This document shows, piece after piece, positions 26,029-56,117 of a stretch of 64,000 bases of DNA; position 1 is the first letter of the stretch, and every line of letters starts with the position of its first letter. A program made the position numbers and the translations under genes. The notes under the pieces were generated by a model. The model made no database searches. It saw nothing but the letters and a program-made list of their open reading frames with translations, and had not been told where the DNA came from. Source of the stretch: an uncultured Elusimicrobia bacterium (GTDB taxonomy: Bacteria > Elusimicrobiota > Elusimicrobia > 2-01-FULL-59-12). The DNA is taken from assembly GCA_963702895.1 (NCBI GenBank), contig OY969767.1, forward strand, positions 1,454,315 to 1,518,314, written 5' to 3'.

Positions 26029-27498
26029 TTAAAAGTTAAGCGTCGTGACTTCCCGGTCTTCCATCCAGAAGTCATAGATCATGTGCGTCACAAAGACAGC
26101 CGTGAAGAGGGAGATCATGACGCCCCAAAAGAGCGTCACAGCAAAGCCTTTCACAGGGCCGGTACCGAACTGGAAAAGAAGCCCGGAAGTGATCAGCGTC
26201 GTCACGTGGCCATCGAAAATCGCGGCCCAGGCGTGTTTATAGCCCAAGTCAATGGCCAGACGGACGGATTTGCCTAACTGAAGCTCCTCACGAACGCGCT
26301 CAAGGATGAGGACGTTGGCGTCCACCGCCATCGCGAGCGACAGGATGGTCCCGGCCACACCCGGCAGCGTCAAAGTCGCATGCAGAGAAGCCAGGACACC
26401 GAAAATAAAGAGCATGTTGATGATCATGGCGAGGTTCGCGATCAGCCCTGATACGTTGTAATAGACCGCCATTAAGAGCATGACGAGAAAGATGCCGATC
26501 AAGGAGGACCTGACGCCTGCCTTAATGGAGTCTTCTCCCAGCGTTGGACCCACCGTGCGTTCTTCGATCACCTTCACAGGAGCAGGAAGCGCGCCCGCTT
26601 TAAGGACCGTGGCCAGAAGCTTCGCGTCTTCCGCGGTGAAGTTCCCCTCTATCACAGCATGTCCATCCGGAATCGCCGAGCGAATCACCGGCGCGGATTG
26701 GATCTGGTTGTCAAGGACGATCGCCAGCTGCTTGTTCACGTTGGCTTCTGTGACAAGGCCAAAGAGCTTGGCGCCTTCCGTATTGAATTCAATCGAAACG
26801 CTGGGATAACCGGTGACGAGCTGATCGGATCCGCCGCCAAAGGTGATCTTGGCGTCCACGAGCATCGCTCCTGTGAGCTCCGCGGAGGACTTGACGACGA
26901 GATAGCTTCCCGCCAGGCGTTCCGTGTCCTTTCGCTGCGGCAGAATCTGCCATCCGGCAGGCATCGTTTTGGCGAGGTCGGCGGGAATTTTCCCAGACTG
27001 CTGAAGCTCGAAATACTGATCCAGACTCATCTTCTTGTCGAGCAGGGCCTTGCTGAGCGTGGCCATGAGACCGGCGTCATCCACCAGACGAAACTCAAGC
27101 AAAGCGGTCTTGCCAATCAGTTCCTTCGCCCGCCCGGAATCCTTGATGCCTGGAAGCTGTACGACGATCCAGCGGTCACCCTGGCGCGCGATCAGGGGCT
27201 CGGCAACACCAAATTGGTCAACGCGGTTCCGGATGATCTCAATCGCCCGCTCAAGCGCATCGGCGATTTTGGCTTCCGGCGGGAGCTTCGACCGATCCAG
27301 CTCCAACACCAGGTGCGTACCACCCTTCAGATCAAGACCGAGATTGAGAATCTTTTTCAGGATGGGATCACGCTCTTTCTCGCGTTCAGAACGTTCCTCC
27401 GCAGACATGCGGTACCACTTGACCGTGGGCAAGAGGAAATAGCCTGTCAGGCCGACCAGGGCTAACGTCAAATAAAGAACGACGCGAGACCTGCTCAT
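26029..27498 (-). CDS. secD: Protein translocase subunit SecD
   Basis: LGLDLKGG, RNRVDQFGVAEP, GPTLG, AVDANVLILER. Confidence 0.97.
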   Translation of the reverse strand: MSRSRVVLYLTLALVGLTGYFLLPTVKWYRMSAEERSEREKERDPILKKILNLGLDLKGGTHLVLELDRSKLPPEAKIADALERAIEIIRNRVDQFGVAEPLIARQGDRWIVVQLPGIKDSGRAKELIGKTALLEFRLVDDAGLMATLSKALLDKKMSLDQYFELQQSGKIPADLAKTMPAGWQILPQRKDTERLAGSYLVVKSSAELTGAMLVDAKITFGGGSDQLVTGYPSVSIEFNTEGAKLFGLVTEANVNKQLAIVLDNQIQSAPVIRSAIPDGHAVIEGNFTAEDAKLLATVLKAGALPAPVKVIEERTVGPTLGEDSIKAGVRSSLIGIFLVMLLMAVYYNVSGLIANLAMIINMLFIFGVLASLHATLTLPGVAGTILSLAMAVDANVLILERVREELQLGKSVRLAIDLGYKHAWAAIFDGHVTTLITSGLLFQFGTGPVKGFAVTLFWGVMISLFTAVFVTHMIYDFWMEDREVTTLNF

Positions 27499-27836
27499 AC
27501 GTGGGTTGTGCTCGTTGGGCTGGAAGGCTCGTGCAAGACCTTGCTGATCGCAGACTGGGTGACATCCACACGCACGTTATCAGCGATTTTGATCTGGACA
27601 ATTCCGCTCCGCACGGAGGTCACCGTTCCCAGAATCCCACCTTGGGTCAGGACCTTATCGCCCGCTTTAAGGTTCTCCATCATGCGACGGTGCTCTTTGG
27701 CCTGTTTTTGCTGCGGGCGAATAATGAGAAAGTAGAGGATGCCGATCACGACCAGCATCGGGACAAAGCTAATGACAGAATTTCCTGCTGGGGCCGCTTG
27801 GCTCCCTTTGGGTGGGACGCTGACTTGAGAACCCAT
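27495..27836 (-). CDS. yajC: Preprotein translocase subunit YajC
   Basis: YFLIIRPQQK, L.AGDKV.T.GGI.G. Confidence 0.95.
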   Translation of the reverse strand: MGSQVSVPPKGSQAAPAGNSVISFVPMLVVIGILYFLIIRPQQKQAKEHRRMMENLKAGDKVLTQGGILGTVTSVRSGIVQIKIADNVRVDVTQSAISKVLHEPSSPTSTTHV

Positions 27837-27840
27837 ATGT

Positions 27841-29124
27841 TTACTCTCCTTGGCTTCCGTAGACTTCGAGAAACTTTCTCTTTTCTTCCTTGAAGTTACC
27901 GTCGATAAGAGATTGGCGAATTTTTCGCATCAATTTTAATAGAAAGGCCACGTTATGTAAAGACGCAAGGCGAAGGGCCGAGAGCTCTCCAGACCGGAAC
28001 AAATGATGCAGGTAAGCGCGCGTGTAGCGACTGCAAAGATCGCAGTCGCACGCAGGATCAACAGGTCGGAAATCCTCACGGTAGGGCGCGTTTTTGAGGT
28101 TCAGTTTTCCCTGGGAAGTGAATAGCTGCCCGTTACGACCGTTCCTGGTCGGTAACACGCAATCAAATTGGTCGATCCCCAGGTCGACCGCTTCCCATAA
28201 ATCTTCCGGGGTCCCCACCCCCATCAGGTAGCGGGGCTTGTCCTGAGGCAAGAGATCCGTGGAGAGCGCGATCATCTCATGCATCGCGGCCTGGGGCTCG
28301 CCGACCGAAAGGCCTCCGATCGCGTAACCCGGGAAATCGAGGTCCACCAGTTCCCGGGCGCTCTGCCTGCGGAGTTCGGGATAGATGGAACCCTGGGTGA
28401 TGGCCCACAATTGGGGTGGTGTTACTCCTTCCCCCCTTGTGGGGGAAGGCAAGGGATGGGGGGATCGTCCACCCCCACCCTCACCCTCCCCCATCCAGGG
28501 GGAGGGGCACTTTTTCATAGCGTCCTGGCAGCGCTTCGCCCAGCGCGTCGTGATCTCCAGAGCCCGGCGCGCGTGATCTTCCGCGCAAGGGTAAGGCGGA
28601 CATTCATCGAAACACATGAGGATATCGGAACCGATCGCCAGTTGGATCTCCACGGCTTTCTCCGGGCTTAAAAAATGGAGCGACCCGTCCAGATGAGACC
28701 GGAACTCGACGCCTTCTTCCGAAATGCGCCTGAGCTGTTCCATGCTAAAAACTTGATAGCCCCCCGAATCCGTCAGAATCGCGCGGTCCCAACTCATAAA
28801 TTTATGGAGTCCACCCGCTTTGGCGATCACCTCCACGCCGGGGCGCAGATACAGATGGTAGGTATTGGCGAGGATCAACTGGGATTGAAGTCTTTCAAGG
28901 TCCTGGGATAGGAGCGTTTTGACGGACCCCTGTGTGCCGACGGGGGCGAAGACCGGCGTATCGACCACGCCATGCCGGGTCATCAATCGGCCAACCCGCG
29001 CCTTGGAACCCGCGCACCGTGCCACGACCTCAAAACACCTGTCACCCCGGCGGAAGCCGGGGTCTATCATGATGGATCCCCCGCTTAAGACCGCGGGGGA
29101 TGACGATTTTTGCGTTTCTGTCAT
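27841..29124 (-). CDS. tgt: tRNA-guanine transglycosylase carrying two in-frame palindromic inserts
   Basis: PVGT, LANTYHL, TDSGG, QG, GGLSVGE, FDCVLPTR, CDCDLC, HN. Confidence 0.97.
   Translation of the reverse strand: MTETQKSSSPAVLSGGSIMIDPGFRRGDRCFEVVARCAGSKARVGRLMTRHGVVDTPVFAPVGTQGSVKTLLSQDLERLQSQLILANTYHLYLRPGVEVIAKAGGLHKFMSWDRAILTDSGGYQVFSMEQLRRISEEGVEFRSHLDGSLHFLSPEKAVEIQLAIGSDILMCFDECPPYPCAEDHARRALEITTRWAKRCQDAMKKCPSPWMGEGEGGGGRSPHPLPSPTRGEGVTPPQLWAITQGSIYPELRRQSARELVDLDFPGYAIGGLSVGEPQAAMHEMIALSTDLLPQDKPRYLMGVGTPEDLWEAVDLGIDQFDCVLPTRNGRNGQLFTSQGKLNLKNAPYREDFRPVDPACDCDLCSRYTRAYLHHLFRSGELSALRLASLHNVAFLLKLMRKIRQSLIDGNFKEEKRKFLEVYGSQGE
28425..28507. repeat. C/G-rich double-hairpin palindrome in-frame inside tgt
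   Basis: ccttcccccc-ttgt-gggggaagg ... ccctccccc-atcca-gggggaggg; encodes PSPWMGEGEGGGGRSPHPLPSPTRGEG. Confidence 0.85.
29041..29104. repeat. REP-like doublet (GTCAC/GTCAT ends) in the tgt N-terminus; empty form
   Basis: gtcaccccggc-ggaa-gccggggtctatcatgatggatcccccgc...gcgggggatgac; homologous to copies at 33284, 40574, 51657, 55886. Confidence 0.9.
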
Positions 29125-30221
29125 AGAATCAGCATCGCGTCACCATAAGAGTAAAAGCGATAGCCCCGTTGGATGGCGACTTCGTAAGCGGGGCGCAGCG
29201 AGAATGGCGGTATCGGAGTATCGGAGTTTCGGGGTATCGGTGTTACATCAGCTCTAACCCCGATACTCCGGTACCCCGTTACTCCGGTACGGTCACTGTA
29301 GAAGGCGCACGCCAAGAGCAGGGGCGTCGAACCGGGGAGGTGAAAGTTCGTGATCAGGGCATCGACGGCCTTAAAGCGGTAGCCGGGATAGATATAAAGC
29401 TTGGCCTCGCCCCGGCCGGAAGAAAAGGTCCCCGACGCGTCGCAGATCGTTTCCAACGTCCGCGTCACGGTTGTGCCAACCGCGATCAGGCGTCGGCCTT
29501 CCTGCTTCGCCCGATTCAAGGCCTTTGCCGTGTCGGCGCTCACTTCATACATTTCGGAAAGCATCGGGTGTTCTTCGATGGTTTTCGTTCGAACAGGACG
29601 AAACGTCCCCCAACCCACATGTAAAACCAGCGAGGTCGTCTCGATCCCTCTGGACGTGAGACGCCTTAAAAGATCCTCCGTGAAGTGGAAACCCGCTGTT
29701 GGGGCCGCGACAGCCCCCTCCGTCCTGGCATAGACCGTTTGATAGCGCTCGACATCCGCAAGATTGACAGAGTTGCGCTTGATATAAGGAGGCAGCGGCA
29801 TTTCCCCATGGCGATCCAGATAGCTCCGGATATGATTGCTTGAAAACATCAGCCGCCATTCCCCTTCCGCCAAACGCTCAGACATCTCGGCACGCAGGCC
29901 CTCCGGAAACTGGAGGGTCGTCTTTTGTGTCGCGCCTCGCACAAGCGCCTTCCAGGAGGCATCCTCTTGGGCCAACAGCAGGACCTCCACTTTGCCGCCG
30001 GAAACCTTCGTTCCTCTTAATCGGGCTGGGAAGACTTTCGTGGCGTTGGTCACGAGCAGGTCGCCTGGCCGAAGATGTTCGTCCAGTCCAAAAAAATAGT
30101 CGTGGTTGAGGGTTCCCTGGTTCCGGTCCAGGACCATGAGGCGTGAATGATCGCGCGGCGAAACAGGAGCTTGCGCGATTGTGCCTGCCGGTACATCGTA
30201 ATGAAAGTCCTGTAATTTCAC
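29121..30221 (-). CDS. queA: S-adenosylmethionine:tRNA ribosyltransferase-isomerase with in-frame repeat insert
   Basis: IAQ.P...RD.SRL, PLPPYI, YQTVYA, AAPTAG, HVG.GTF, TNFHLP, YSYGDAM. Confidence 0.97.
   Translation of the reverse strand: MKLQDFHYDVPAGTIAQAPVSPRDHSRLMVLDRNQGTLNHDYFFGLDEHLRPGDLLVTNATKVFPARLRGTKVSGGKVEVLLLAQEDASWKALVRGATQKTTLQFPEGLRAEMSERLAEGEWRLMFSSNHIRSYLDRHGEMPLPPYIKRNSVNLADVERYQTVYARTEGAVAAPTAGFHFTEDLLRRLTSRGIETTSLVLHVGWGTFRPVRTKTIEEHPMLSEMYEVSADTAKALNRAKQEGRRLIAVGTTVTRTLETICDASGTFSSGRGEAKLYIYPGYRFKAVDALITNFHLPGSTPLLLACAFYSDRTGVTGYRSIGVRADVTPIPRNSDTPIPPFSLRPAYEVAIQRGYRFYSYGDAMLIL
29210..29290. repeat. Inverted arrays of 8-bp tandem repeats in-frame inside queA
   Basis: gtatcgga gtatcgga gtttcggg gtatcggt ... 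accccgat actccggt accccgtt actccggt. Confidence 0.88.
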
Positions 30222-31402
30222 AGGGCGACCACTTTCGCTTGAGGATAATAAACCTTAAGAATTTCTTTATATTTATGTCCCTCCAGGGCACGGCCCCTGG
30301 CGCCCCACTGACACAGACCGACACCATGGCCCCATCCGAGCCCTTCGAAGGTCACGGATTTCTTATCTGCTTTGAGCTCCGTGATGAGGGTGCTTCGCAG
30401 GGCCTCAGGCCCCACCGCCAGGCGGAAACGGTTTCCAGCCAGATGGATTTCTCCCTTCGAGGTCTTCAACAGCACGGTCTGCGCCCTGCCAGAAGGGGAC
30501 TGTTGGAGGATATCGACAGACCTGATGGATTGAACTCGTACGCCGGCCCGCCGCAATCGTTCACGCAGGGCAGAATAGCTGAGGGTCAAGTCCCATTGAT
30601 GCCTGGGGTAAGCTGCGCAGTAGGTGTGATCGAGCGTGACGTCATAGATGGCCTCTTGGGAATCGATGTTCCAGACATTCTCAGGTCGCTCGGTACGGCC
30701 GCCACAAGCCGCATGAAAAAACGCACGGACGGGCCTGCCTGTGGGATCGACCAAAATGCGGCCCTCGGTCTCCAGTACCGCGCGGTTGGTTTCTGATGAT
30801 TCGACATCCTGACCGCCATAGACCTGGTCCATGACGGTCGAAGACACATCAAAGCGTTCGCGCATGCGAACCCTTTTGTTGGCCATGGCATAAGAGCGGG
30901 AGACGACCGCCTGCGCTTTAAGAGCTTCGATGGGCCAGCTCGGATGGACCTCCTTGGGCAGAACACCAAACAAGTATTCCGCGATCTGCAGATATTCCAC
31001 GACGTCATAGCGGCCACGGCCCAAAGGATGAAACAGAAGCACCCCTCGGTATCGTTGGCCGTTCACGGTGAGACTATCCTTGGGCCTGTCGGGCATCACG
31101 AGCACATCTCCTTTGAAACGGTGCGTCCCGATCATCAGCGTCGAACCCGAAGCCCTGACTTTGAGCGAGCTACGACTTGTGCGGATGCGATCGTTCTTGA
31201 GAAGACCGTAATGAAACGTTCCTGGGCAGGAAAGCCGGCTGGGATGTTGGGTGGATAAGATTCTGACTCGAATATGGTCCGAAGACGCTGGAAGTCGTAG
31301 TATCGCCGTTGCCGTTTCTGCCGTAAAACCGGTGGCACCCCCTGACAAAAGGAGAAAGGATAGACAAGACGTCAGGAAAACCCTGAAAACCCTGAAAACC
31401 AT
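30218..31402 (-). CDS. SpoIID/LytB domain lytic transglycosylase
   Basis: YRG.L, YL.GV.PKE, EALKAQAV.SRSYA, DQVYGG, G.GWGHGVGLCQWGA; TAATG coupling to upstream gene. Confidence 0.93.
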   Translation of the reverse strand: MVFRVFRVFLTSCLSFLLLSGGATGFTAETATAILRLPASSDHIRVRILSTQHPSRLSCPGTFHYGLLKNDRIRTSRSSLKVRASGSTLMIGTHRFKGDVLVMPDRPKDSLTVNGQRYRGVLLFHPLGRGRYDVVEYLQIAEYLFGVLPKEVHPSWPIEALKAQAVVSRSYAMANKRVRMRERFDVSSTVMDQVYGGQDVESSETNRAVLETEGRILVDPTGRPVRAFFHAACGGRTERPENVWNIDSQEAIYDVTLDHTYCAAYPRHQWDLTLSYSALRERLRRAGVRVQSIRSVDILQQSPSGRAQTVLLKTSKGEIHLAGNRFRLAVGPEALRSTLITELKADKKSVTFEGLGWGHGVGLCQWGARGRALEGHKYKEILKVYYPQAKVVAL

Positions 31403-31623
31403 TAGTGTTTCCCCAGAAACCTTGAAAGCAGCGACAGGAGGATGCTGATCACCAAACACGTCGTGACAGGAAAGTAGATTGTGAAATGATCGCGCTTGAT
31501 GGCGATATCGCCTGGCAGCTTCCCGAAAAAGGGGACCTTGCCAGCGACGGAAAGGAAAATCCCCAGAACGACGGTGGCTAAACCGAAATAGATCAGCACT
31601 TTCCCGAGAGCCTGCGGTGTCAT
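31402..31623 (-). CDS. DUF2905 small membrane protein
   Basis: GKLPGDI.IKR..FTIYFP.TTC. Confidence 0.9.
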   Translation of the reverse strand: MTPQALGKVLIYFGLATVVLGIFLSVAGKVPFFGKLPGDIAIKRDHFTIYFPVTTCLVISILLSLLSRFLGKH

Positions 31624-31632
31624 GAGAGGACT

Positions 31633-32661
31633 TTAAAACAGCTGGTCCTGGGTTGTTTTCGGTGCCGGTTTTCCAAGATGCCTGTAAGCATGATCGGTCG
31701 CCAGTCGCCCACGCGGCGTCCGTGACAGAAATCCGCACTGGATCAGGAAGGGCTCATAGACATCGGTGAGCGTATCGACATCTTCGGAGAGGGCGACCGC
31801 GAGCGTCTCGATGCCAACCGGCCCTCCTCCAAATTTTTCAATGAGGGTACTGAGAAGTCGACGGTCCATGGTATCGAGACCGCGATCATCCACATCCAAC
31901 TGCCGGAGGCCGTCCGCCGCCACCGCCAGAGAAAGCGTTCTGCCGGCGGAGGTGTCCGCAAAATCGCGGAGGCGCCTGAGCAAGCGGTTGGCAATGCGTG
32001 GCGTCCCGCGGCTGCGCCGTGCGATCTCCCGGAGACCCCCCTGGTCAGCGCTCACTTTCAAAATGACACTCGACCTTTGAAGAATTTGCAGGAGCTCCTC
32101 CTCCGTATAGAACTCAAGATGGGCCGTGATGCCAAAGCGGTCGCGCAAAGGGCTCGTTAAAAGCCCAGCCCGTGTGGTCGCCCCCACGAGCGTAAAACGC
32201 GGCACGGGGAGATTGATGGTCTTAGCGCTTGGGCCTTCGCCAATAATGACATCCAGCTTAAAATCCTCCATGACGGAGTAGAGTGTTTCCTCCACGACAT
32301 GATTGAGGCGGTGGATTTCATCGATGAAGAAGACATCGCCCTCCTGAAGGCTTGTGAGGATGGCCGCGAGGTCCCCTTTGCGCTCCAGGACGGGCCCGGA
32401 GGTGACGCGCAGCCCACAACGCATCTCATGCGCGATGATCCCGGCCAGCGTCGTCTTGCCGAGACCCGGTGGAGAATAGAAGAGGCAGTGATCGAGAGGC
32501 TCTTTGCGCTGGGAAGCGGCCTCAATAAAGACACGGAGATTTTTCTTCATGCGCTCTTGACCCACAAACTCCGCCAGCGTCTGGGGACGCAGGGACTGCT
32601 CGATCGGCTCTTCTTCGGCGACGGCCTGGGGAGTCAGGGATGGCGTTTGGGTTGTACTCAT
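31633..32661 (-). CDS. ruvB: Holliday junction helicase RuvB
   Basis: [32 protein letters not shown]. Confidence 0.98.
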
Positions 32662-33266
32662 GAAAGCTGTTTGAGGGCCTCTTTGACCAGTTCGGCCGTG
32701 CTGGTCTGTGAACGCGAGTGCGACGGTAAGCGATCCAAGGCGGCTCTGGCCTCCGGCTCGCGATAGCCCAAGCTCACGAGCGCCGCGATCGCTTCACTGG
32801 CACCCGTCGCCTCAAGGGAGCCCGACCACTTCTCTCGTCCGGCCACGCGTAAAGCGGCGATACGGTCCTTGAGGGCCGCAATGATCTTGTTGGACGTCTT
32901 CGGGGTAAAACCAAAGAGGCTGGTGAGGGTCCTGGTGTCTCCTCCGAGCACCGCTCTGCGAAAATCGGGGGCTGATTTCGCAATTTTATCCAAATAATCG
33001 AGCGCTTTCTTGGATCCGGTGCCGGGTATTTCACGCAGCAAGAGGTAGATTTCTTTTTCCTCCAGGGACAGAAAACCATAGAGCGTGACAGCGCCGCCAT
33101 ACATCGCCATCGCTTCCACAATAAAAAGTTGGATCTCTTCGCCCACCGAAGGCAATCGGTCGTAGGCTGAGAGCGTTACGAACACCTCATAGCCGATGCC
33201 GTGCACATCCAGCAGGGCCTGGCCAGGCGATTTATGCAGCAGAGAACCCCGTAGACTGCCGATCAT
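32658..33266 (-). CDS. ruvA: Holliday junction DNA-binding protein RuvA
   Basis: MIGSLRG, GIGYEV, LYGF, ALVSLGY. Confidence 0.95.
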
Positions 33267-33919
33267 ACAACCGCCTTTAGGCCGTCATCCCGGCGGCTCG
33301 TAAGCCGGGATCCATCATGATAGACCCCGGGTCTCCAAACGTCAGGCGACCCGGCCCGCCGGACGTGTGGAGGGCCGGCTTTCGCCGGGGTGACGTCGTT
33401 AAGTAAGGCACGATTTGTCTGGAGATGGCAGAGCGCGATCGCCAACGCATCGGCCGCATCATCAGGCTTGGGCAGCTCCTTGAGACGGAATTGGCGCTGG
33501 ACCATCGACTGCATCTGAAGCTTCGAAGCCGATCCGAAACCGGTCATCGCCATCTTCACCGCGCGGGGGTTGTATTCCAGGACAGGAAGTCCAGCCTCCG
33601 CCGCCACAAGCACGATCACGCCGCGGGCCTGAGCGGTGGCCGCGATGCTCACAGCAAATTTCGCGAAAAAGAGTTCTTCGATGGCCAGCACCTCCGGCTT
33701 GTGGGTCTGGATGAGGCTCGCCAGTTCTTGTTTGATCTGAAGAAGACGTTCCGGCAGGGCGGTCGAGGAGGGCGTCACAATCGCGCCAAAATCGATGAGA
33801 GCGATCCCCTTCGGTGCTTTTTCAAGCACGCCCCAGCCGGTGGTGGCCAGTCCCGGGTCGACACCCAGCACTCGACAACTTGACGCGGGGAAACTGGGAC
33901 GTGGAGAACTGTCGATCAT
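33263..33919 (-). CDS. ruvC: Crossover junction endodeoxyribonuclease RuvC with repeat-derived N- and C-terminal extensions
   Basis: VLGVDPG..TGWG, IEELFF, QARG, TGFG.A.K.Q, DDAADALAIA; ATG 33919 preceded by GGAGA. Confidence 0.95.
   Translation of the reverse strand: MIDSSPRPSFPASSCRVLGVDPGLATTGWGVLEKAPKGIALIDFGAIVTPSSTALPERLLQIKQELASLIQTHKPEVLAIEELFFAKFAVSIAATAQARGVIVLVAAEAGLPVLEYNPRAVKMAMTGFGSASKLQMQSMVQRQFRLKELPKPDDAADALAIALCHLQTNRALLNDVTPAKAGPPHVRRAGSPDVWRPGVYHDGSRLTSRRDDGLKAVV
33284..33394. repeat. REP-like doublet with nested 48-bp hairpin dimer, translated as the RuvC C-terminal tail
   Basis: Reverse complement matches 29041-29104 except for an extra ccctccacacgtccggcgggccgggtcgcctgacgtttggagacccgg; 111 bp. 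Confidence 0.9.
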
Positions 33920-33954
33920 TTCTCCGTGTCCCCGCATCACCGCGTCACCGCGCC
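33882..33954. repeat. Inverted arrays of 8-bp tandem repeats at the yebC-ruvC junction
   Basis: gacgcggg gaaactgg gacgtgga gaa ... tccgtgtc cccgcatc accgcgtc accgcgcc. Confidence 0.8.
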
Positions 33955-33959
33955 GGTGG

Positions 33960-34715
33960 TCACTTCGAGGCTGCGCTTTCAATGACGTCCTTGGGGATAT
34001 CAAAATTTGCGTACACGTTCTTGACGTCGTCGTGATCTTCCAGATCGTTCATGAGAGACATCATCTGCTGCGCCGGGGACCCGGTAAGTTTGACATAGGT
34101 CTTCGGCAAAAGGGTCACCTCTGCCGAAAGCGTGGGGACCTTCGCTGCCGCAAACGCCTTTTTCACAGACTCAAAATCCGCGGGCTGCGTGATGACCTCA
34201 AAGATATCGGGGTCTTCCGACTGAATGTCCTCTGCCCCGGCGTCGAGCGCCAGCGTCATGAGCTGATCTTCGGTGGCATTGGATTTCTCCACGGTCAGGA
34301 TCCCTTTCGAGGAAAACATCCAGCCCACCGAGCCCGTCTCGCCCAGGTTGCCGCCGTGTTGAGAAAAAAGGCGGCGGATTTCGCCCGCGGTGCGGTTTTT
34401 ATTGTCCGTCGTCACCTCAATCATGAGCGCCACACCGCTCGGGCCATAGCCCTCATAAACAAGCTCTTCGTAGGTTGCCCCTGGCAATTCGCCTGTGCCC
34501 CGCTGGATGGCCTTCTTGATATTGTCGGCCGGCATGTTCGCCTCCCGAGCATCATCCATGGCCTTGCGAAGTCGGGGGTTCGACTCCGGGCTTCCCCCGC
34601 CGATTTTGGCAGCAATCACGATTTCGCGGATAATCTTCGTAAAAAGCTTGCCCCGCTTAGCGTCGGCCAAGCCCTTCTTATGCTTAATTCCTGCCCAACG
34701 TGAATGTCCTGACAC
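33960..34715 (-). CDS. yebC: YebC/PmpR family protein
   Basis: SGHSRWAGIKHKK, YEGYGP.G, DNKNRT; GTG start behind a GGAGGAGGA SD. Confidence 0.96.
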   Translation of the reverse strand: MSGHSRWAGIKHKKGLADAKRGKLFTKIIREIVIAAKIGGGSPESNPRLRKAMDDAREANMPADNIKKAIQRGTGELPGATYEELVYEGYGPSGVALMIEVTTDNKNRTAGEIRRLFSQHGGNLGETGSVGWMFSSKGILTVEKSNATEDQLMTLALDAGAEDIQSEDPDIFEVITQPADFESVKKAFAAAKVPTLSAEVTLLPKTYVKLTGSPAQQMMSLMNDLEDHDDVKNVYANFDIPKDVIESAASK

Positions 34716-34735
34716 GGGTCCTCCTCCAATGGGGG

Positions 34736-34754
34736 GCCCCGCTTTCGCGGGGAT
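34736..34754. repeat. Single REP-like hairpin in the yebC 5' leader
   Basis: ccccgc-tttc-gcggggat, same stem-loop as the REP arms at 55784 and 56095. Confidence 0.65.
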
Positions 34755-34787
34755 GGAGCTGTTTCCTGTAAGCTTTTTGCCGGTCAC

Positions 34788-34796
34788 ATTTTAACA
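34788..34796 (-). promoter_or_regulatory. Putative extended -10 promoter (TGTTAAAAT) at the head of the yebC-ruv-que-sec run
   Basis: TGn+TAAAAT about 73 bp upstream of yebC; identical 9-mer at 43181-43189. Confidence 0.5.
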
Positions 34797-34907
34797 GATT
34801 CGTGCCCTCTTCCTCGATGGATCTGGGCAACAGCTTGACTGTTCTGCGTCCGAACGTGACGGAATCAGGTGATGCGGCGTTCTTCCGCCGAAGGTTAGAG
34901 CAGCCCC

Positions 34908-36902
34908 TCAGGGCCTTGCGGATCCACGAGAGGCCTTGGCATTCTGAGACACCACCGCTAAGTTTTTCTTCGCCAAGTCAAAGCTGGGATCAAGGTGAAG
35001 CGCTTTTTGATAGGCCTGGATCGCTTGGTCCCACGCCTCAATTTGCGTGTAATAGTAACCCAGGTTATTCCACATGTCACGGTCGGCCGGAAAGACCCGG
35101 ACTCCCTGCAAATAGAGCGCTTCCACATCCCCCTTGTGCTGCTCAAAATGTCTGAAATAGAGGCCGGCAAGCGCGTTGTAGGCGGTCTGGGAGAGCGGGT
35201 TAATCGCGAGGCAGATTCTGTAATAGTGGATGGCCTCCTCATCACGGCCGGCCTGCATCAGCAGGGTGGCGCGGTTAAAGTAAATCTCATCGTAACCGGC
35301 ATTGGCATCCAGGGCCCGCTGGTACATGTGGAGCGCCTTTTCCTTGTCCCCCATGCGCGCGTAGACATTGGCCAATTCGTAATTATTGTTCACCTCCAGG
35401 GGATGCCAACGGTACGCTCGCTCAAGGGAGCGCGCTGCCCCGGGCAGGTCGATGCCGCCCTTGGAGAGTTTAAAGCCGTGAAAAAAATGGATTTCCCCCC
35501 TCCACAACGCGAACGAGCGTGCCATGAGACTCATGAGTCCCAGCACGGCCAGGAGCACGAGCGCTTTGCGCCACAGAGGCGCAAGATTCACACGATGGAC
35601 CTTGAGGTTTTCGGGGTCAAGCGCCATCACGGAGCCCACCCACCACCAGAAAAAAAAGGCGGGCACGGCAAAATGGACCGATACATTCAGGAGATTATCG
35701 ACCAGCATCCCGGCGACCCCGCCGAGCATGCCCCAGCACATCGGCTTCCATCCGCCTGAGAGGCGCCGCGCGATCGCAGCGCCCTGGCGAAAGAAAAGGA
35801 CCCACATCCAAAGGACCACGCCGAATCCGATCGAGCCGATCTGCGACCAGTATTCAAGAATCTCGTTATGGGCGTTATTGGCGTGCGTGCGCGCCGCTAA
35901 GTTTTTCAGAAAGAGGATAGGCCCCTGGTAAAAAGGATAGAAGAGCTCAAAGCACCCCCACCCTTTCCCCAACCAGGGGTGGTCCTGGACCATACCGAAG
36001 GCGGCGATCCAGATCAGGAACCTCTGATAGACAGAACCATAGGCCTCGTGTGTAGCTCGTTTGACCTCCATCAAACGAGCAATGACGACCGGCTTATAAC
36101 TGTCCGCGCTTTGCGGCCAGGCAAGGACAATCAGCCCCATCACCACAAGGAGCGCTTTGGACCCCCGGGCGGACTTGGGGTCCGTTCGGTGCACGGCCCA
36201 CGCGAGCACGAGCAACCCCACCAAGAGCCCCATCCAAGAGGAACGGGTCATGGTCGCCAGGATCGCGCCAAGACAAACCGGAATGGCAAGAAAGAGCAGG
36301 GCGCGCGGAAATCTTGTCACCTTAAAAAGATAATCCGCCACCATCACCGGCATCACCACAACCAGAAACGACGACATAAAGTTGGGGTTGCCAAAAGTCG
36401 AGACGGGCCTGTTGCCGTAAGGGTTGAGCTGCCTGGGCCAAATCAGTTCCACGCCAAAGAACTGCGCGATTCCATAAGCGGCCGCGAGGGTCGCGACGAC
36501 ATACGTGATCCAAAGCAGCGCCCGGACGAGCGAGGCCTCACGCGCGCGCAAAGCAGCCGCATAAACTAAAAAGGTGTTCACGAGGAGGAAAATCATGGAT
36601 TTGGACCCCTCGCTGTAGATCGATGAGAGAAAGGCGGGATGGGCCGCCATCGACAGGAGCCAACTGCTGAGCGACACCAGGCCCAGGCCCAGGAACGGCA
36701 CATCCAAGGGTGAGCTCACCCAGGCCAGTTCGTTATTGCGCAGGGACGCCACAAGCCAAACACACCAACAGGCGGGAACGAACACATTGAGCAGGGCGAT
36801 CTGGGTGTAATAGGGATTGCGCGTCAGGTCTGTGAAAAAAAGAAGAGGGCAGACCCCGAAGAGAAGGAAAAGGAGACTACGGACGGATCGGGGGGTTGCC
36901 AT
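34908..36902 (-). CDS. O-antigen ligase-like (Wzy_C) membrane protein with C-terminal TPRs
   Basis: STFGNPNF, TRSSW, R..IW...G.GWG.F, AHNEILE, TPR helices. Confidence 0.88.
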   Translation of the reverse strand: MATPRSVRSLLFLLFGVCPLLFFTDLTRNPYYTQIALLNVFVPACWCVWLVASLRNNELAWVSSPLDVPFLGLGLVSLSSWLLSMAAHPAFLSSIYSEGSKSMIFLLVNTFLVYAAALRAREASLVRALLWITYVVATLAAAYGIAQFFGVELIWPRQLNPYGNRPVSTFGNPNFMSSFLVVVMPVMVADYLFKVTRFPRALLFLAIPVCLGAILATMTRSSWMGLLVGLLVLAWAVHRTDPKSARGSKALLVVMGLIVLAWPQSADSYKPVVIARLMEVKRATHEAYGSVYQRFLIWIAAFGMVQDHPWLGKGWGCFELFYPFYQGPILFLKNLAARTHANNAHNEILEYWSQIGSIGFGVVLWMWVLFFRQGAAIARRLSGGWKPMCWGMLGGVAGMLVDNLLNVSVHFAVPAFFFWWWVGSVMALDPENLKVHRVNLAPLWRKALVLLAVLGLMSLMARSFALWRGEIHFFHGFKLSKGGIDLPGAARSLERAYRWHPLEVNNNYELANVYARMGDKEKALHMYQRALDANAGYDEIYFNRATLLMQAGRDEEAIHYYRICLAINPLSQTAYNALAGLYFRHFEQHKGDVEALYLQGVRVFPADRDMWNNLGYYYTQIEAWDQAIQAYQKALHLDPSFDLAKKNLAVVSQNAKASRGSARP

Positions 36903-40573: not shown

Positions 40574-40788
40574 GTTACCCCGGCGAAAGCCGGCCCTCCA
40601 CACATCCGGCGGGCCGTCCGCCCTGCCGTGTGGCGGACGCGGTCTATCATGTTACGACGTAAATGATGGATCCGACACACTACAGTCGGACGCCTGTTGT
40701 GTGGCGTCCCGGCTTTCGCCGGGATGACGGACTAAAAAGTGCACGATGCTCAGACGATAGGATAAACTCAAGTGAAGATTCCCGGTTA
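40574..40788. repeat. Composite REP-like element with two nested hairpin inserts and a shared right tail
   Basis: gttaccccggcgaaagccgg[47 bp]ggtctatcat...atgatgga[36 bp]tcccggctttcgccgggatgac, then a tail homologous to 56017-56080. Confidence 0.85.
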
Positions 40789-51656: not shown

Positions 51657-51817
51657 GTCATCCCCCGCGGACGTTAGCGGGGGAACCATCATTACTTTTT
51701 CGTTCGCTGATAGACCCCGGGTCTCCACAAGTCCAGCGACCCTCCGCCACATCCGACACACGTCAGTCGGATCCGCCCAATGCGTGGAGAGCCGGCTTCC
51801 AACCGCCAAGGGGTGAC
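51657..51817. repeat. REP-like doublet with multiply nested hairpin units
   Basis: gtcatcccccgc..gcgggggaaccatcat...tgatagaccccgg[gtctccac..gacc, ctccgccaca, tccgacacacgtcagtcgga..]gccgg..ggggtgac. Confidence 0.8.
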
Positions 51818-55783: not shown

Positions 55784-56117
55784 GTCATCCCCGCGGAAGC
55801 GGGCCCTCCACACAGCCGGCGGGCCCGTCCGCCGGATTTGTGGAGGACGGGGACCCATGAGACTAACCGGAAAACTGTAGTTGCCGTCACCCCGGCACGT
55901 CGTAAGCCGGCCCTCCAGACTACCGGCGGGCCGTCCGCCCTGCCGTGTGGCGGACGGGGTCTATCATCGACGTATAAAACATGATGGATCCCCCACTTAC
56001 GACCGTGGGGGATGACGGCACTAAAAAGTCCCGACGTCTCAATCGATAAACAACGCCCAACCGAACGTTTCCGGCTGATAGAAACGAGGACGAAATCCCC
56101 GCTTTCGCGAGCATGAC
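55784..56117. repeat. Nested repeat cluster: outer REP pair enclosing a MITE-like unit that contains an inner REP doublet; both left arms carry hairpin dimers
   Basis: Outer gtcatccccgcggaagcggg..(55784) / ..ccccgctttcgcgagcatgac (56117); ctaaccggaaaac..gtttccggctgatag (55863-56080); inner doublet 55886-56016. Confidence 0.85.

What the first reader, a model, noticed from the sequence alone, without database searches (positions are those of the whole stretch)
27841..33954. Three unrelated palindrome types lie in-frame within tgt, queA and ruvC
Seen: five insertions in about 6 kb with every ORF still open: tgt internal (28425-28507), tgt N-terminus (29041-29104), queA C-terminal region (29210-29290), ruvC C-terminus (33284-33394) and ruvC N-terminus (33882-33954). 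Established: coding-region palindromes are known from Rickettsia RPEs. Inference: repeat insertion is actively creating new peptide segments here, concentrated in non-essential genes of a coupled operon where only in-frame events avoid polarity.
Basis: partly seen in the sequence, partly recalled or inferred. Interest (0 to 1): 0.72.

Follow-up and report, generated by a model that had tools for sequence, protein, structure and literature searches.

The report
Palindromic repeats translated inside housekeeping genes
Five small hairpin-forming DNA repeats of three known kinds sit inside or at the ends of the tgt, queA and ruvC genes without breaking them, one local example of a habit this genome shows in dozens of housekeeping genes and that is already known from Rickettsia and other bacteria.

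Summary
All five elements exist at the stated coordinates, fold far better than shuffles, and leave every ORF open.

**What they are**
- Two (tgt 5' end, ruvC 3' end) are head-to-head dimers of one CGTC-tagged REP family, about 194 loci genome-wide.
- The queA insert is a foldback whose arms are 4-5 tandem 8-base units. It has 66 loci and is specific to this genome.
- The ruvC 5' element is a second 8-base-unit type.
- The tgt internal insert is a double BoxC/triplex-motif element.

**Evidence for insertion**
- Orthologues in congeners lack these segments.
- Solved Tgt and QueA structures have 6 and 4 residues where this genome has 30 and 33.
- AlphaFold gives pLDDT below 50 exactly there.
- The same loops and gene junctions hold different dispersed repeats in relatives.

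**Genome-wide**
- 49 repeat loci lie inside called genes.
- 25 of 40 tested interrupt or are flanked by Pfam domains, in genes such as dnaE, leuS, uvrA, clpB and metH. The "non-essential genes/polarity" inference is therefore not supported.

**Open and prior work**
- Translation of the two 5' copies is uncertain.
- This is a new member of a known kind (intragenic REPs, RPE-like).
- Earlier notes of this scan reported the same phenomenon elsewhere in this genome.

The parts
27841..29124 (-). tgt (queuine tRNA-ribosyltransferase), 427 codons; its ATG overlaps the queA stop
   Evidence: ORF. Pfam TGT E 5.6e-154. Zn-site Cys/His and TDSGG are invariant in the 12-sequence alignment.
28425..28507 (-). 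Double BoxC / triplex-motif (TM) palindrome, translated as Tgt residues about 206-233
   Evidence: The published TMECO consensus matches 28472-28506 (minus strand) with 1 mismatch; 0 of 100 shuffles gave any match. There are 6 loci genome-wide. Where solved TGT chains have 6 residues, this protein has 30. pLDDT is below 50 at 208-233.
29041..29105 (.). Head-to-head dimer of CGTC-tagged REPs (two 8-9 bp hairpins around an ATCATGAT core), occupying tgt codons 7-28
   Evidence: Family alignment. Relatives' Tgt begins at query residue about 28-31. A metagenome contig skips 29035-29120 and has 17 other bases there. pLDDT is below 50 at 1-28.
29121..30221 (-). queA (S-adenosylmethionine:tRNA ribosyltransferase-isomerase), 366 codons
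   Evidence: ORF. Pfam Queuosine_synth E 9e-117, in 2 stretches.
29200..29290 (.). Foldback with arms of about 4 tandem 8-base units (GTATCGGA-like), translated as QueA residues about 311-340
   Evidence: Fold z-score -5.6. 66 loci, 60 with convergent arms, arms mostly 4-5 units. Absent from same-genus G003 and G002 orthologues. PDB 1vky has 4 residues where this protein has 33. pLDDT is below 50 at 313-333.
32658..33266 (-). ruvA; its ATG overlaps the stop of the extended ruvC frame
   Evidence: ORF; sequence.
33263..33982 (-). ruvC, read from the conserved TTG that lies inside the yebC 3' end (the frame is open up to 34003)
   Evidence: Pfam RuvC covers residues 45-193 of the 246-residue ORF. 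In G003 and G007 the only canonical start in the open frame upstream of the conserved core is this TTG (read from the alignment).
33283..33394 (.). CGTC-REP head-to-head dimer with a nested hairpin module in its left stem, read through as the RuvC C-terminal tail (residues about 204-241 of 246)
   Evidence: Family alignment with 45 copies. Relatives' RuvC matches end at about residue 201. The tail peptide matches 32 other places in this genome.
33882..33954 (.). Second type of 8-base-unit foldback (GGTGACGC-like units) between the yebC stop and the RuvC core. It is in frame and stop-free if the TTG start is used.
   Evidence: Fold z-score -2.9. Weak family of 9 loci. Absent in G003, G002, G007 and G010. 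A related element sits at the same place in G005 and an unrelated palindrome in G008.
33960..34787 (-). yebC/TACO1-family gene upstream in the same operon; the likely true start is GTG at 34715
   Evidence: Pfam; sequence.

Best explanation
The five elements are copies of small, non-coding, hairpin-forming dispersed repeats. They normally live between genes and have landed in places where the protein tolerates extra residues.

**Shown**
- (a) CGTC-tagged REP dimers mainly fill short spacers between co-directional genes. In this operon neighbouring genes overlap (ATGA), so a junction-seeking copy necessarily ends up in the first codons of tgt or the last codons of ruvC.
- (b) The BoxC/TM element and the 8-base-unit foldback sit in surface loops of Tgt and QueA. 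These loops are short in solved structures and predicted disordered here.
- (c) The same loops and junctions carry different dispersed repeats in related genomes.

**Inferred**
- Insertion or gene conversion happens broadly. Selection then removes every copy that shifts the frame, brings a stop or hits a folded core.
- What remains looks 'in-frame' and clusters in permissive loops, linkers and termini.
- The inserts are translated as floppy, functionally neutral segments.
- No dedicated transposase is evident, as reported for CGTC REPs. How the repeats spread remains unknown.
For: **Families and their habits**
- Iterated nhmmer found 194 REP loci, 66 8-base-unit loci, 6 BoxC loci and 9 of the second 8-base type.
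- REP loci inside called genes: 22 of 194, against 156 expected at random. For the 8-base family: 19 of 66, against 52 expected.
- 36 REP loci abut co-directional genes within 40 nt on both sides.

**CGTC-REP features**
- In a 30-copy alignment built without reference to the tag, the left end is CGTC in 26 copies and TGTC in 3. The right end is GACG in 20 and GACA in 8.
- 51 of 56 adjacent unit pairs have their tags outward.

**Absence from orthologues**
- Shown: - One metagenome contig shows the tgt 5' site without the REP dimer.

**Structure**
- Tgt residues 204-233 correspond to 6 residues in PDB chains. QueA residues 311-343 correspond to 4 residues.
- pLDDT is below 50 at Tgt 1-28 and 208-233 and at QueA 313-333, within otherwise confident folds (pTM 0.79 and 0.80).

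**Generality**
- 25 of 40 tested host pieces have the repeat inside or between Pfam domains.

**Recurrence at the same sites**
- The Tgt loop in G002 holds a 117-nt palindrome with 15 further matches in G002. The loop in G003 holds a 66-nt 8-base-unit foldback with 5 further matches in G003.
- The QueA loop in G004 holds a 99-nt palindrome with about 6 other loci in G004.
- The ruvC 5' element of G005 has 8 further matches in G005.
- The G007 ruvC tail carries a CGTC-REP dimer.

**Precedent**
- Intragenic CGTC and GTAG REPs have been reported in DNA repair and replication genes, tRNA synthetases and tRNA modification genes, with no transposase found for CGTC REPs (PMC3733652).
Against: - No protein or RNA data: no RNA run was listed, and translation of any insert is untested.
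- For tgt_N an ATG inside the REP core could be the real start. For ruvC_N there are in-frame ATG and GTG codons downstream. The paper on tagged REPs warns that many N-terminal REPs are not coding.
- In-gene copies fold as stably as intergenic ones (median MFE per nt -0.562 against -0.556, p 0.66). This fits young neutral inserts, but equally fits selection for the hairpin.
- Gene calls come from my own simple caller, which truncates 5' ends.
- 8 of 17 tested hosts of the 8-base-unit family have no Pfam match, so their status is open.
- No target-site duplications or clean excision footprints were seen. The flanks of the unoccupied tgt site also differ.
Confidence: 0.8

Rival explanations
1. 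Only three of the five are coding. The tgt 5' and ruvC 5' elements are untranslated leaders, with translation starting downstream: at the ATG in the REP core for tgt, and at an ATG or GTG before the RuvC core. The hairpins would then act, if at all, on the mRNA.
For: In-frame downstream starts exist. A G-rich stretch precedes the ATG in the REP core. The literature says most 5'-terminal REPs are probably not coding. AlphaFold sees no structure in Tgt 1-28.
Against: The ancestral starts are retained: the tgt ATG overlapping the queA stop, and the ruvC TTG inside yebC. The inserts are frame-preserving and stop-free in G000. At the ruvC site the same holds in G005 and G008, which would be a coincidence if they were untranslated.
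Confidence: 0.35
2. The sites were occupied once, in the ancestor of the family. The lineage-specific sequences reflect gene conversion or replacement by each genome's own repeats, not repeated fresh insertions. On this reading 'active creation of new peptides' is overstated.
For: The Tgt loop carries repeat-like sequence in 5 of the 6 family genomes whose loops I folded (G003, G002, G007, G008, G005); the sixth, G006, has only a short loop. G002 and G007, from different genera, share one subfamily there at 89% over 46 nt. REP copies are nested inside other REP stems.
Against: The queA insert family gave no match in the three congeners and appeared in only 1 of 30 relatives. Congeners have a short queA loop. 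An unoccupied tgt 5' site exists in a close metagenomic relative.
Confidence: 0.3
3. The inserts are retained because they do something. For example, the mRNA hairpins might tune decay or translational coupling in the operon, or the DNA cruciforms or peptide loops might be used by the nucleic-acid enzymes that carry them.
For: In-gene copies keep full hairpin stability. Many hosts act on DNA or tRNA, both here and in other phyla.
Against: The families are strongly depleted from genes. The hosts are functionally diverse. The inserts are predicted disordered. Different unrelated repeats occupy the same sites in relatives. I did not test enrichment statistically.
Confidence: 0.1
4. Assembly artefact or decaying pseudogenes.
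For: Repeats can mislead assemblers. The only exact-match public contigs may come from the source sample itself.
Against: Frames are intact. Catalytic and Zn-binding residues are invariant. Exact contigs cover the ruvC 3' copy (33221-33509). The same pattern occurs in independent relatives' assemblies.
Confidence: 0.03

Closest known systems
CGTC-tagged REPs and intragenic REPs (Di Nocera, De Gregorio, Rocco 2013, PMC3733652; I read the abstract, passages and all of section 15)
   Same: CGTC/TGTC tag; 8-bp stem starting with A; GAAA-type 4-nt loops. Head-to-head dimers predominate. Mostly located between co-directional genes. No dedicated transposase. Some copies lie inside genes for DNA repair and replication, tRNA synthetases and tRNA modification enzymes, encoding 20-30 residues.
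   Different: Not reported from this phylum: the paper lists 5 phyla for CGTC repeats, and 'Elusimicrobia' occurs 0 times in its text. About 60% of units here have 8-10 nt loops rather than 4-5. Many dimers carry nested hairpin modules. I did not test sequence relatedness to the paper's four CGTC families.
Rickettsia palindromic elements (Ogata et al. 2000; seen only as cited in the review PMC10969869 and in PMC3733652)
   Same: Palindromic repeats inserted in frame in many unrelated housekeeping genes, judged compatible with the protein fold.
   Different: RPE-1 is about 150 bp and encodes a conserved peptide in one frame. Here three unrelated kinds coexist, are mostly intergenic, and occur in a free-living-sized 2.7-Mb genome.
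BoxC / PIT / intrastrand triplex motif TMECO (Holder et al. 2015, PMC4666352; passages read)
   Same: The three-block C/G-tract consensus matches with 1 mismatch. Palindromic double forms exist. The motif is widespread across bacteria.
   Different: In E. coli K-12 the 23 copies are 'always intergenic'. Here 4 of 6 loci lie inside called genes (tgt, leuS editing domain, a histidine kinase, one untested).
G-rich heptamer repeats (GGGAATC) in Xanthomonas and Nostoc, often as convergent pairs (Rehm et al. 2015, PMC4692102; passages read)
   Same: Tandem short units with a preference for about four units. 70-75 convergent pairs per genome can form stem-loops. Mostly intergenic, with 7-11% overlapping ORFs.
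   Different: The unit here is 8 nt and not uniformly G4-capable. Almost all loci (60 of 66) are convergent pairs. The unit sequence is specific to this genome.
REPIN-RAYT systems (Bertels and Rainey 2011; search listing and abstract start only)
   Same: Two inverted REPs forming a larger hairpin, in hundreds of copies.
   Different: GTAG tag absent. No RAYT found: only one 23.3-bit Y1_Tnp fragment in an 84-codon ORF.

Membership tests
CGTC-tagged REP superfamily | Unpaired CGTC (or TGTC) tetranucleotide at one end of a short stem-loop | tested here: met
   In the 30-copy nhmmer-derived alignment the left end is CGTC in 26 copies and TGTC in 3. The right end is GACG in 20 and GACA in 8.
CGTC-tagged REP superfamily | Stem of 8-9 bp, loop of 4-5 nt | tested here: inconclusive
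   The stem is 8 bp. The loop is 4 nt in 88 of 216 pattern-defined units (GAAA in 53) but 8-10 nt in 128. That pattern required the tag and stem, so only the loop counts are informative.
CGTC-tagged REP superfamily | Head-to-head dimers (tags outside) predominate | tested here: met
   Of 56 adjacent unit pairs within 150 nt, 51 have tags outward, 3 inward and 2 are tandem.
CGTC-tagged REP superfamily | Mostly intergenic between co-directional or convergent genes, with a minority intragenic | tested here: met
   155 of 194 loci are intergenic, 17 partial and 22 inside genes, against 156 expected inside at random. 36 loci abut co-directional genes.
CGTC-tagged REP superfamily | No dedicated transposase flanked by the repeats | tested here: met
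   PF01797 in the own genome gave one match of 23.3 bits in an 84-codon ORF. Other transposase families were not searched.
REPIN-RAYT system | GTAG-tagged REPs plus a single-copy RAYT gene flanked by them | tested here: not met
   The tag is CGTC, not GTAG. No full RAYT was found.
BoxC / TM (TMECO) | Three consecutive C/G-tract blocks fitting the published consensus with 3-6 nt and 3 nt loops | tested here: met
   28472-28506 (minus strand) matches with 1 mismatch; 0 of 100 shuffles gave a match. The other arm is a variant in inverse orientation (read).
BoxC / TM (TMECO) | Forms an intrastrand triplex | not testable with these tools
   Only hairpin folding was computed.
Rickettsia palindromic elements | In-frame palindromic inserts in many functional genes, absent from orthologues | tested here: met
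   This shows it works like an RPE. Sequence kinship to RPEs was not tested.
G-rich heptamer SSR (GGGNATC type) | 7-nt unit with a G3+ tract, about 4 units | tested here: not met
   The unit is 8 nt. The commonest units are GTATCGGA (165), GTAACGGG (88) and GTAACGGA (73). Arms are mostly 4-5 units: 100 of 175 runs.

The most novel reading that the evidence does not exclude
Certain protein loops and gene junctions act as heritable 'landing pads'. Once a palindrome sits there, other unrelated palindrome families insert into it or replace it, as with the nested modules seen inside REP stems. Over time a turnover of selfish hairpins would then keep rewriting the same disordered segments of housekeeping enzymes across a whole bacterial family, preferentially in enzymes that handle DNA and tRNA. 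That would make palindrome turnover a steady source of new linker and loop sequence, not just a set of one-off accidents.
Probability: 0.25. Interest if true: 0.55.

Novelty: new member of a known kind. Interest (0 to 1): 0.35.

Why it matters
It adds a compact, well-documented case outside Rickettsia and Proteobacteria. Three different classes of small palindromic repeat are read through as protein in essential enzymes, and unrelated repeats reuse the same permissive sites in related genomes.

Practical consequences:
- Annotators should expect 20-40 residue repeat-encoded, disordered inserts and terminal extensions in this lineage.
- Start codons near REP copies need care.
- Repeat-derived peptides can create spurious protein similarities. 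For example, the RuvC tail matched 32 other places in this genome.

Tried and rejected
- **RAYT search:** gave only a 23.3-bit fragment, so the REPIN-RAYT reading was dropped.
- **Rfam at E up to 1 over 27000-35000:** gave only sub-threshold miRNA/snoRNA-like hairpin matches, all far below their gathering scores. There is no known RNA family here.
- **Public runs:** no RNA holder was listed. Two DNA holders each held a share of 0.06. When laid, most pieces were relatives' conserved parts or other REP copies. One run's exact contigs may be the source sample.
- **Strict IUPAC REP pattern:** found only 1 of the window's copies, so it was too narrow.
- **First gene caller:** it missed real genes and was replaced. 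The replacement truncates 5' ends, so it classed the tgt 5' and ruvC 5' copies as intergenic, and 5'-terminal events are under-counted genome-wide.
- **Earlier notes by sequence:** the look-up returned nothing.
- **Split genes that would suggest bypassing or splicing of the elements:** the abutting-gene list showed ordinary operon spacers. I did not test the flanking ORFs for shared families.
- **Not Pfam-tested:** five 'inside' events (one BoxC, four of the second 8-base type).
- **Literature on this phylum:** one search listed no paper holding 'Elusimicrobia' among the 10 shown. This is weak evidence of absence from print.
Full report
**Setting.** The window is G000:C1:1454315-1518314 of a single-contig 2.72-Mb genome with about 58% G+C. 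Earlier notes of this scan call the organism an uncultivated Elusimicrobiota bacterium; I did not test that. The region is one minus-strand operon: yebC, ruvC, ruvA, ruvB, a small membrane ORF, a SpoIID-domain gene, queA, tgt, yajC, secD. Neighbouring genes overlap by a few bases. The queA stop overlaps the tgt start, and the ruvC stop overlaps the ruvA start, both as ATGA.

**Observation.**
- Each folds into a long hairpin or double hairpin well beyond shuffled controls. Z-scores ran from -2.9 to -5.6, and 0-2 of 200 shuffles folded as well.
- blastn-short against the genome gave 98 hits (tgt 5'), 121 (ruvC 3'), 90 (queA), 3 (tgt internal) and 1 (ruvC 5').
- Iterated nhmmer with merging gave 194 loci for the first family, 66 for the queA type, 6 for the tgt-internal type and 9 weak relatives of the ruvC 5' element.

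**Identity of the elements.**

*Family 1: the tgt 5' and ruvC 3' copies.* These belong together.
- A unit is CGTC, then an 8-bp stem beginning A[C/T]CCC, then a loop (GAAA is the commonest), then the return stem.
- Two units face each other with the tags outside, around an ATCATGAT-like core.
- In an alignment of 30 copies found without reference to the tag, the left end is CGTC in 26 and TGTC in 3. The right end is the complement in 28.
- Of 56 adjacent unit pairs, 51 have their tags outward.
- This is the CGTC-tagged REP superfamily with predominant head-to-head dimers, as described by Di Nocera et al. 2013 (PMC3733652). That paper also states that CGTC REPs lack a dedicated transposase. Accordingly, a Y1_Tnp search of this genome gave only a 23.3-bit fragment in an 84-codon ORF.
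- The ruvC copy and many others carry an extra hairpin module nested inside the left stem. A few carry a further module inside that one.

*Family 2: the queA element.*
- It has two arms of about four tandem 8-base units in inverse orientation around a short loop.
- 60 of 66 loci have convergent arms, and arms are mostly 4-5 units (100 of 175 runs). The commonest unit is GTATCGGA.
- The nearest described thing is the GGGAATC heptamer repeat of Xanthomonas. It prefers four units and often occurs as convergent pairs (PMC4692102).
- The ruvC 5' element has the same architecture with a different unit (read).

*Family 3: the tgt-internal element.*
- It matches the published BoxC/triplex-motif consensus with one mismatch at 28472-28506, with no match in 100 shuffles.
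- It is a double, inverted form of the motif.

**Are they insertions?**
- *Tgt orthologues.* In 11 relatives the match begins at query residue about 28-31. Many matches split around residues 203-237.
- *Tgt against solved structures.* Residues 204-233 correspond to 6 residues of the chain.
- *QueA.* Same-genus G003 and G002 go straight from the conserved AFY-G motif to the C-terminal helix. PDB 1vky has 4 residues where this protein has 33.
- *RuvC.* Relatives cover residues 39-201 only. The tail (202-246) instead matches 32 other places in this genome.
- *AlphaFold models.* Built on 12-sequence alignments, they give confident folds (pTM 0.79 and 0.80). pLDDT falls below 50 at Tgt 1-28 and 208-233 and at QueA 313-333, with no secondary structure there. 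Other low-confidence stretches (Tgt 66-69 and 123-129; QueA 145-174) are unrelated to the repeats.
- *Metagenome contig.* One contig (run X2, record 11) matches 28948-29034 with 2 differences and 29121-29216 with 10. It skips the 86 bases holding the REP dimer and has 17 other bases there, still in frame. This is a single low-depth contig.

**Start and stop questions.**
- *tgt.* The ATG overlapping the queA stop is the ancestral start, as in the relatives. The REP dimer lies after codon 6 and adds 23 codons in frame. An ATG inside the REP core is an alternative start.
- *ruvC start.* In G003 and G007 the only canonical start in the open frame upstream of the conserved core is a TTG inside the yebC 3' end, preceded by AAGGA (read). 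G000 keeps it at 33982-33980.
- *ruvC 5' inserts.* From that start, the inserts are frame-preserving and stop-free in G000 (+26 codons), G005 (+25) and G008 (+44). This hints that the upstream start is used but does not prove it, because downstream ATG and GTG codons exist.
- *ruvC 3' copy.* This is not 'in frame' in any meaningful sense. The frame simply runs on through the element to a TGA that overlaps the ruvA ATG.

**Genome-wide picture.** I used my own Markov gene caller: 2114 genes, 86% coding. It trims 5' ends.
- The REP family lies inside genes at 22 of 194 loci, against 156 expected at random.
- The 8-base family lies inside genes at 19 of 66, against 52 expected.
- BoxC lies inside genes at 4 of 6, and the second 8-base type at 4 of 9.

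I took 40 of the 49 inside events through Pfam as pieces of at most 650 residues. The 9 left out were the 3 of this finding, one covered by another piece, and 5 untested. Results:
- *REP family.* 17 of 21 interrupt a domain or are flanked by domains on both sides. The hosts are hemC, mnmE, dnaE (HHH_6), a class-I tRNA synthetase, mqnA, an mqnC-like gene, a miaB-like gene, uvrA, polX (thumb), clpB, metH (twice), a pyruvate:ferredoxin-type oxidoreductase (twice), an acyltransferase/AMP-ligase, an FAD_binding_2 enzyme and an FAD-oxidase/CCG protein. Three are C-terminal tails and one is one-sided.
- *8-base family.* 7 of 17 are bracketed by or interrupt domains: a second miaB/rimO-like gene, an addB-like nuclease, ydjM, queG, an aminotransferase, glmM and a giant beta-helix protein. 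One is one-sided, one is N-terminal and 8 have no Pfam match.
- *BoxC.* 1 of 2 lies in the leuS editing domain.

Essential genes are therefore hit. By the same count, the densest 7-kb stretch is in the menaquinone genes (4 events), not here (3).

REPs typically fill the spacer between co-directional genes: 36 loci abut both neighbours within 40 nt. That explains why, in an operon without spacers, copies sit in terminal codons. In-gene copies fold as stably as intergenic ones (p 0.66 and 0.89).

**Relatives.**
- The REP family occurs in 9 of 10 other genomes of the family and only sporadically beyond it.
- The queA-type unit gave no match in the three congeners and only two weak matches in one other genome.
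- The same sites are occupied by other repeats elsewhere:
  - The Tgt loop of G002 is a 117-nt near-perfect palindrome with 15 further matches in G002, and matches in G007 (including its own tgt loop) and G008.
  - The Tgt loop of G003 is a 66-nt foldback of GGCGGATC-like units with 5 further matches in G003.
  - The QueA loop of G004 is a 99-nt C/G-tract palindrome with about 6 other loci in G004 and none in G000 or G003.
  - The ruvC 5' element of G005 has 8 further matches in G005.
  - The G007 ruvC tail ends in a CGTC-REP dimer.
  - A second QueA loop carries inserts in G002, G005, G006, G008 and G018.
- Either these sites are re-hit independently or they are old and get overwritten. Both readings point to permissive sites filtered by selection.

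**Comparison with what is known.**
- Di Nocera et al. already list intragenic GTAG and CGTC REPs encoding 20-30 residues in uvrA, uvrB, dnaE, recBCD, tRNA synthetases and pseudouridine synthases. They equate R. conorii RPE-4 and RPE-6 with CGTC families.
- A 2024 review describes in-frame MITE and RPE fusions.
- BoxC/TM elements were reported as always intergenic in E. coli K-12, so their in-gene position here is a modest extension.
- Earlier notes of this scan reached similar conclusions for metH, addA and giant genes of the same genome.
- I therefore file this as a new member of a known kind. The useful additions are three classes together in one operon, reuse of the same sites across genera, and a lineage not covered by the REP survey.

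Noticed in passing
window 34737-34752 (minus strand), upstream of yebC: A REP-like hairpin with a GAAA loop but no CGTC tag sits just upstream of a GGAGGAGGA Shine-Dalgarno sequence and a GTG at 34715. The longest-ORF start at 34787 therefore probably over-extends YebC by 24 repeat-encoded residues.
   Followed up: partly
window 40574-40728, 51657-51816, 55784-55860, 55886-56016: Four further CGTC-REP loci in the window, all intergenic by my gene calls.
   Followed up: no
G000:C1:970500-975623: Densest cluster of in-gene repeats in the genome. Two mqnC/CofH-like radical-SAM genes and mqnA carry three REP copies and one 8-base-unit foldback. This includes a 51-residue insert that splits the MqnA domain.
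   Followed up: partly
G000:C1 260074, 612790, 679841, 821600: In four genes the called ATG start is the ATG within the REP's terminal GATGACG (the complement of the CGTC tag), so the repeat end may supply start codons. This could also be an artefact of my start-codon choice.
   Followed up: no
G000:C1:707328-709280: A histidine-kinase ORF (HAMP, HisKA) ends 63 nt after a BoxC element, and no ATPase domain was found in the tested piece. The gene may be truncated or frameshifted at the repeat.
   Followed up: no
G000:C1:750022-788685, 1857619-1883220, 2386879-2406345: Open frames of 12,887, 8,533 and 6,488 codons by my caller, each holding 8-base-unit foldbacks. Earlier scan notes describe giant multi-enzyme genes in this genome.
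   Followed up: no
L021, L016, L020, L024, L025 (QueA of G002, G008, G005, G006, G018): A second QueA loop, after the LLL motif near residue 85, carries 10-25 residue Pro/Ser/Gly/Glu-rich inserts in five relatives but not in G000.
   Followed up: no
window 30218-31738: The 506-codon SpoIID-domain ORF has its Pfam match only at residues 242-330. My caller starts it at 31135, so the first 200 or so codons, which overlap a 73-codon membrane ORF at 31402-31623, are probably not part of the gene.
   Followed up: no
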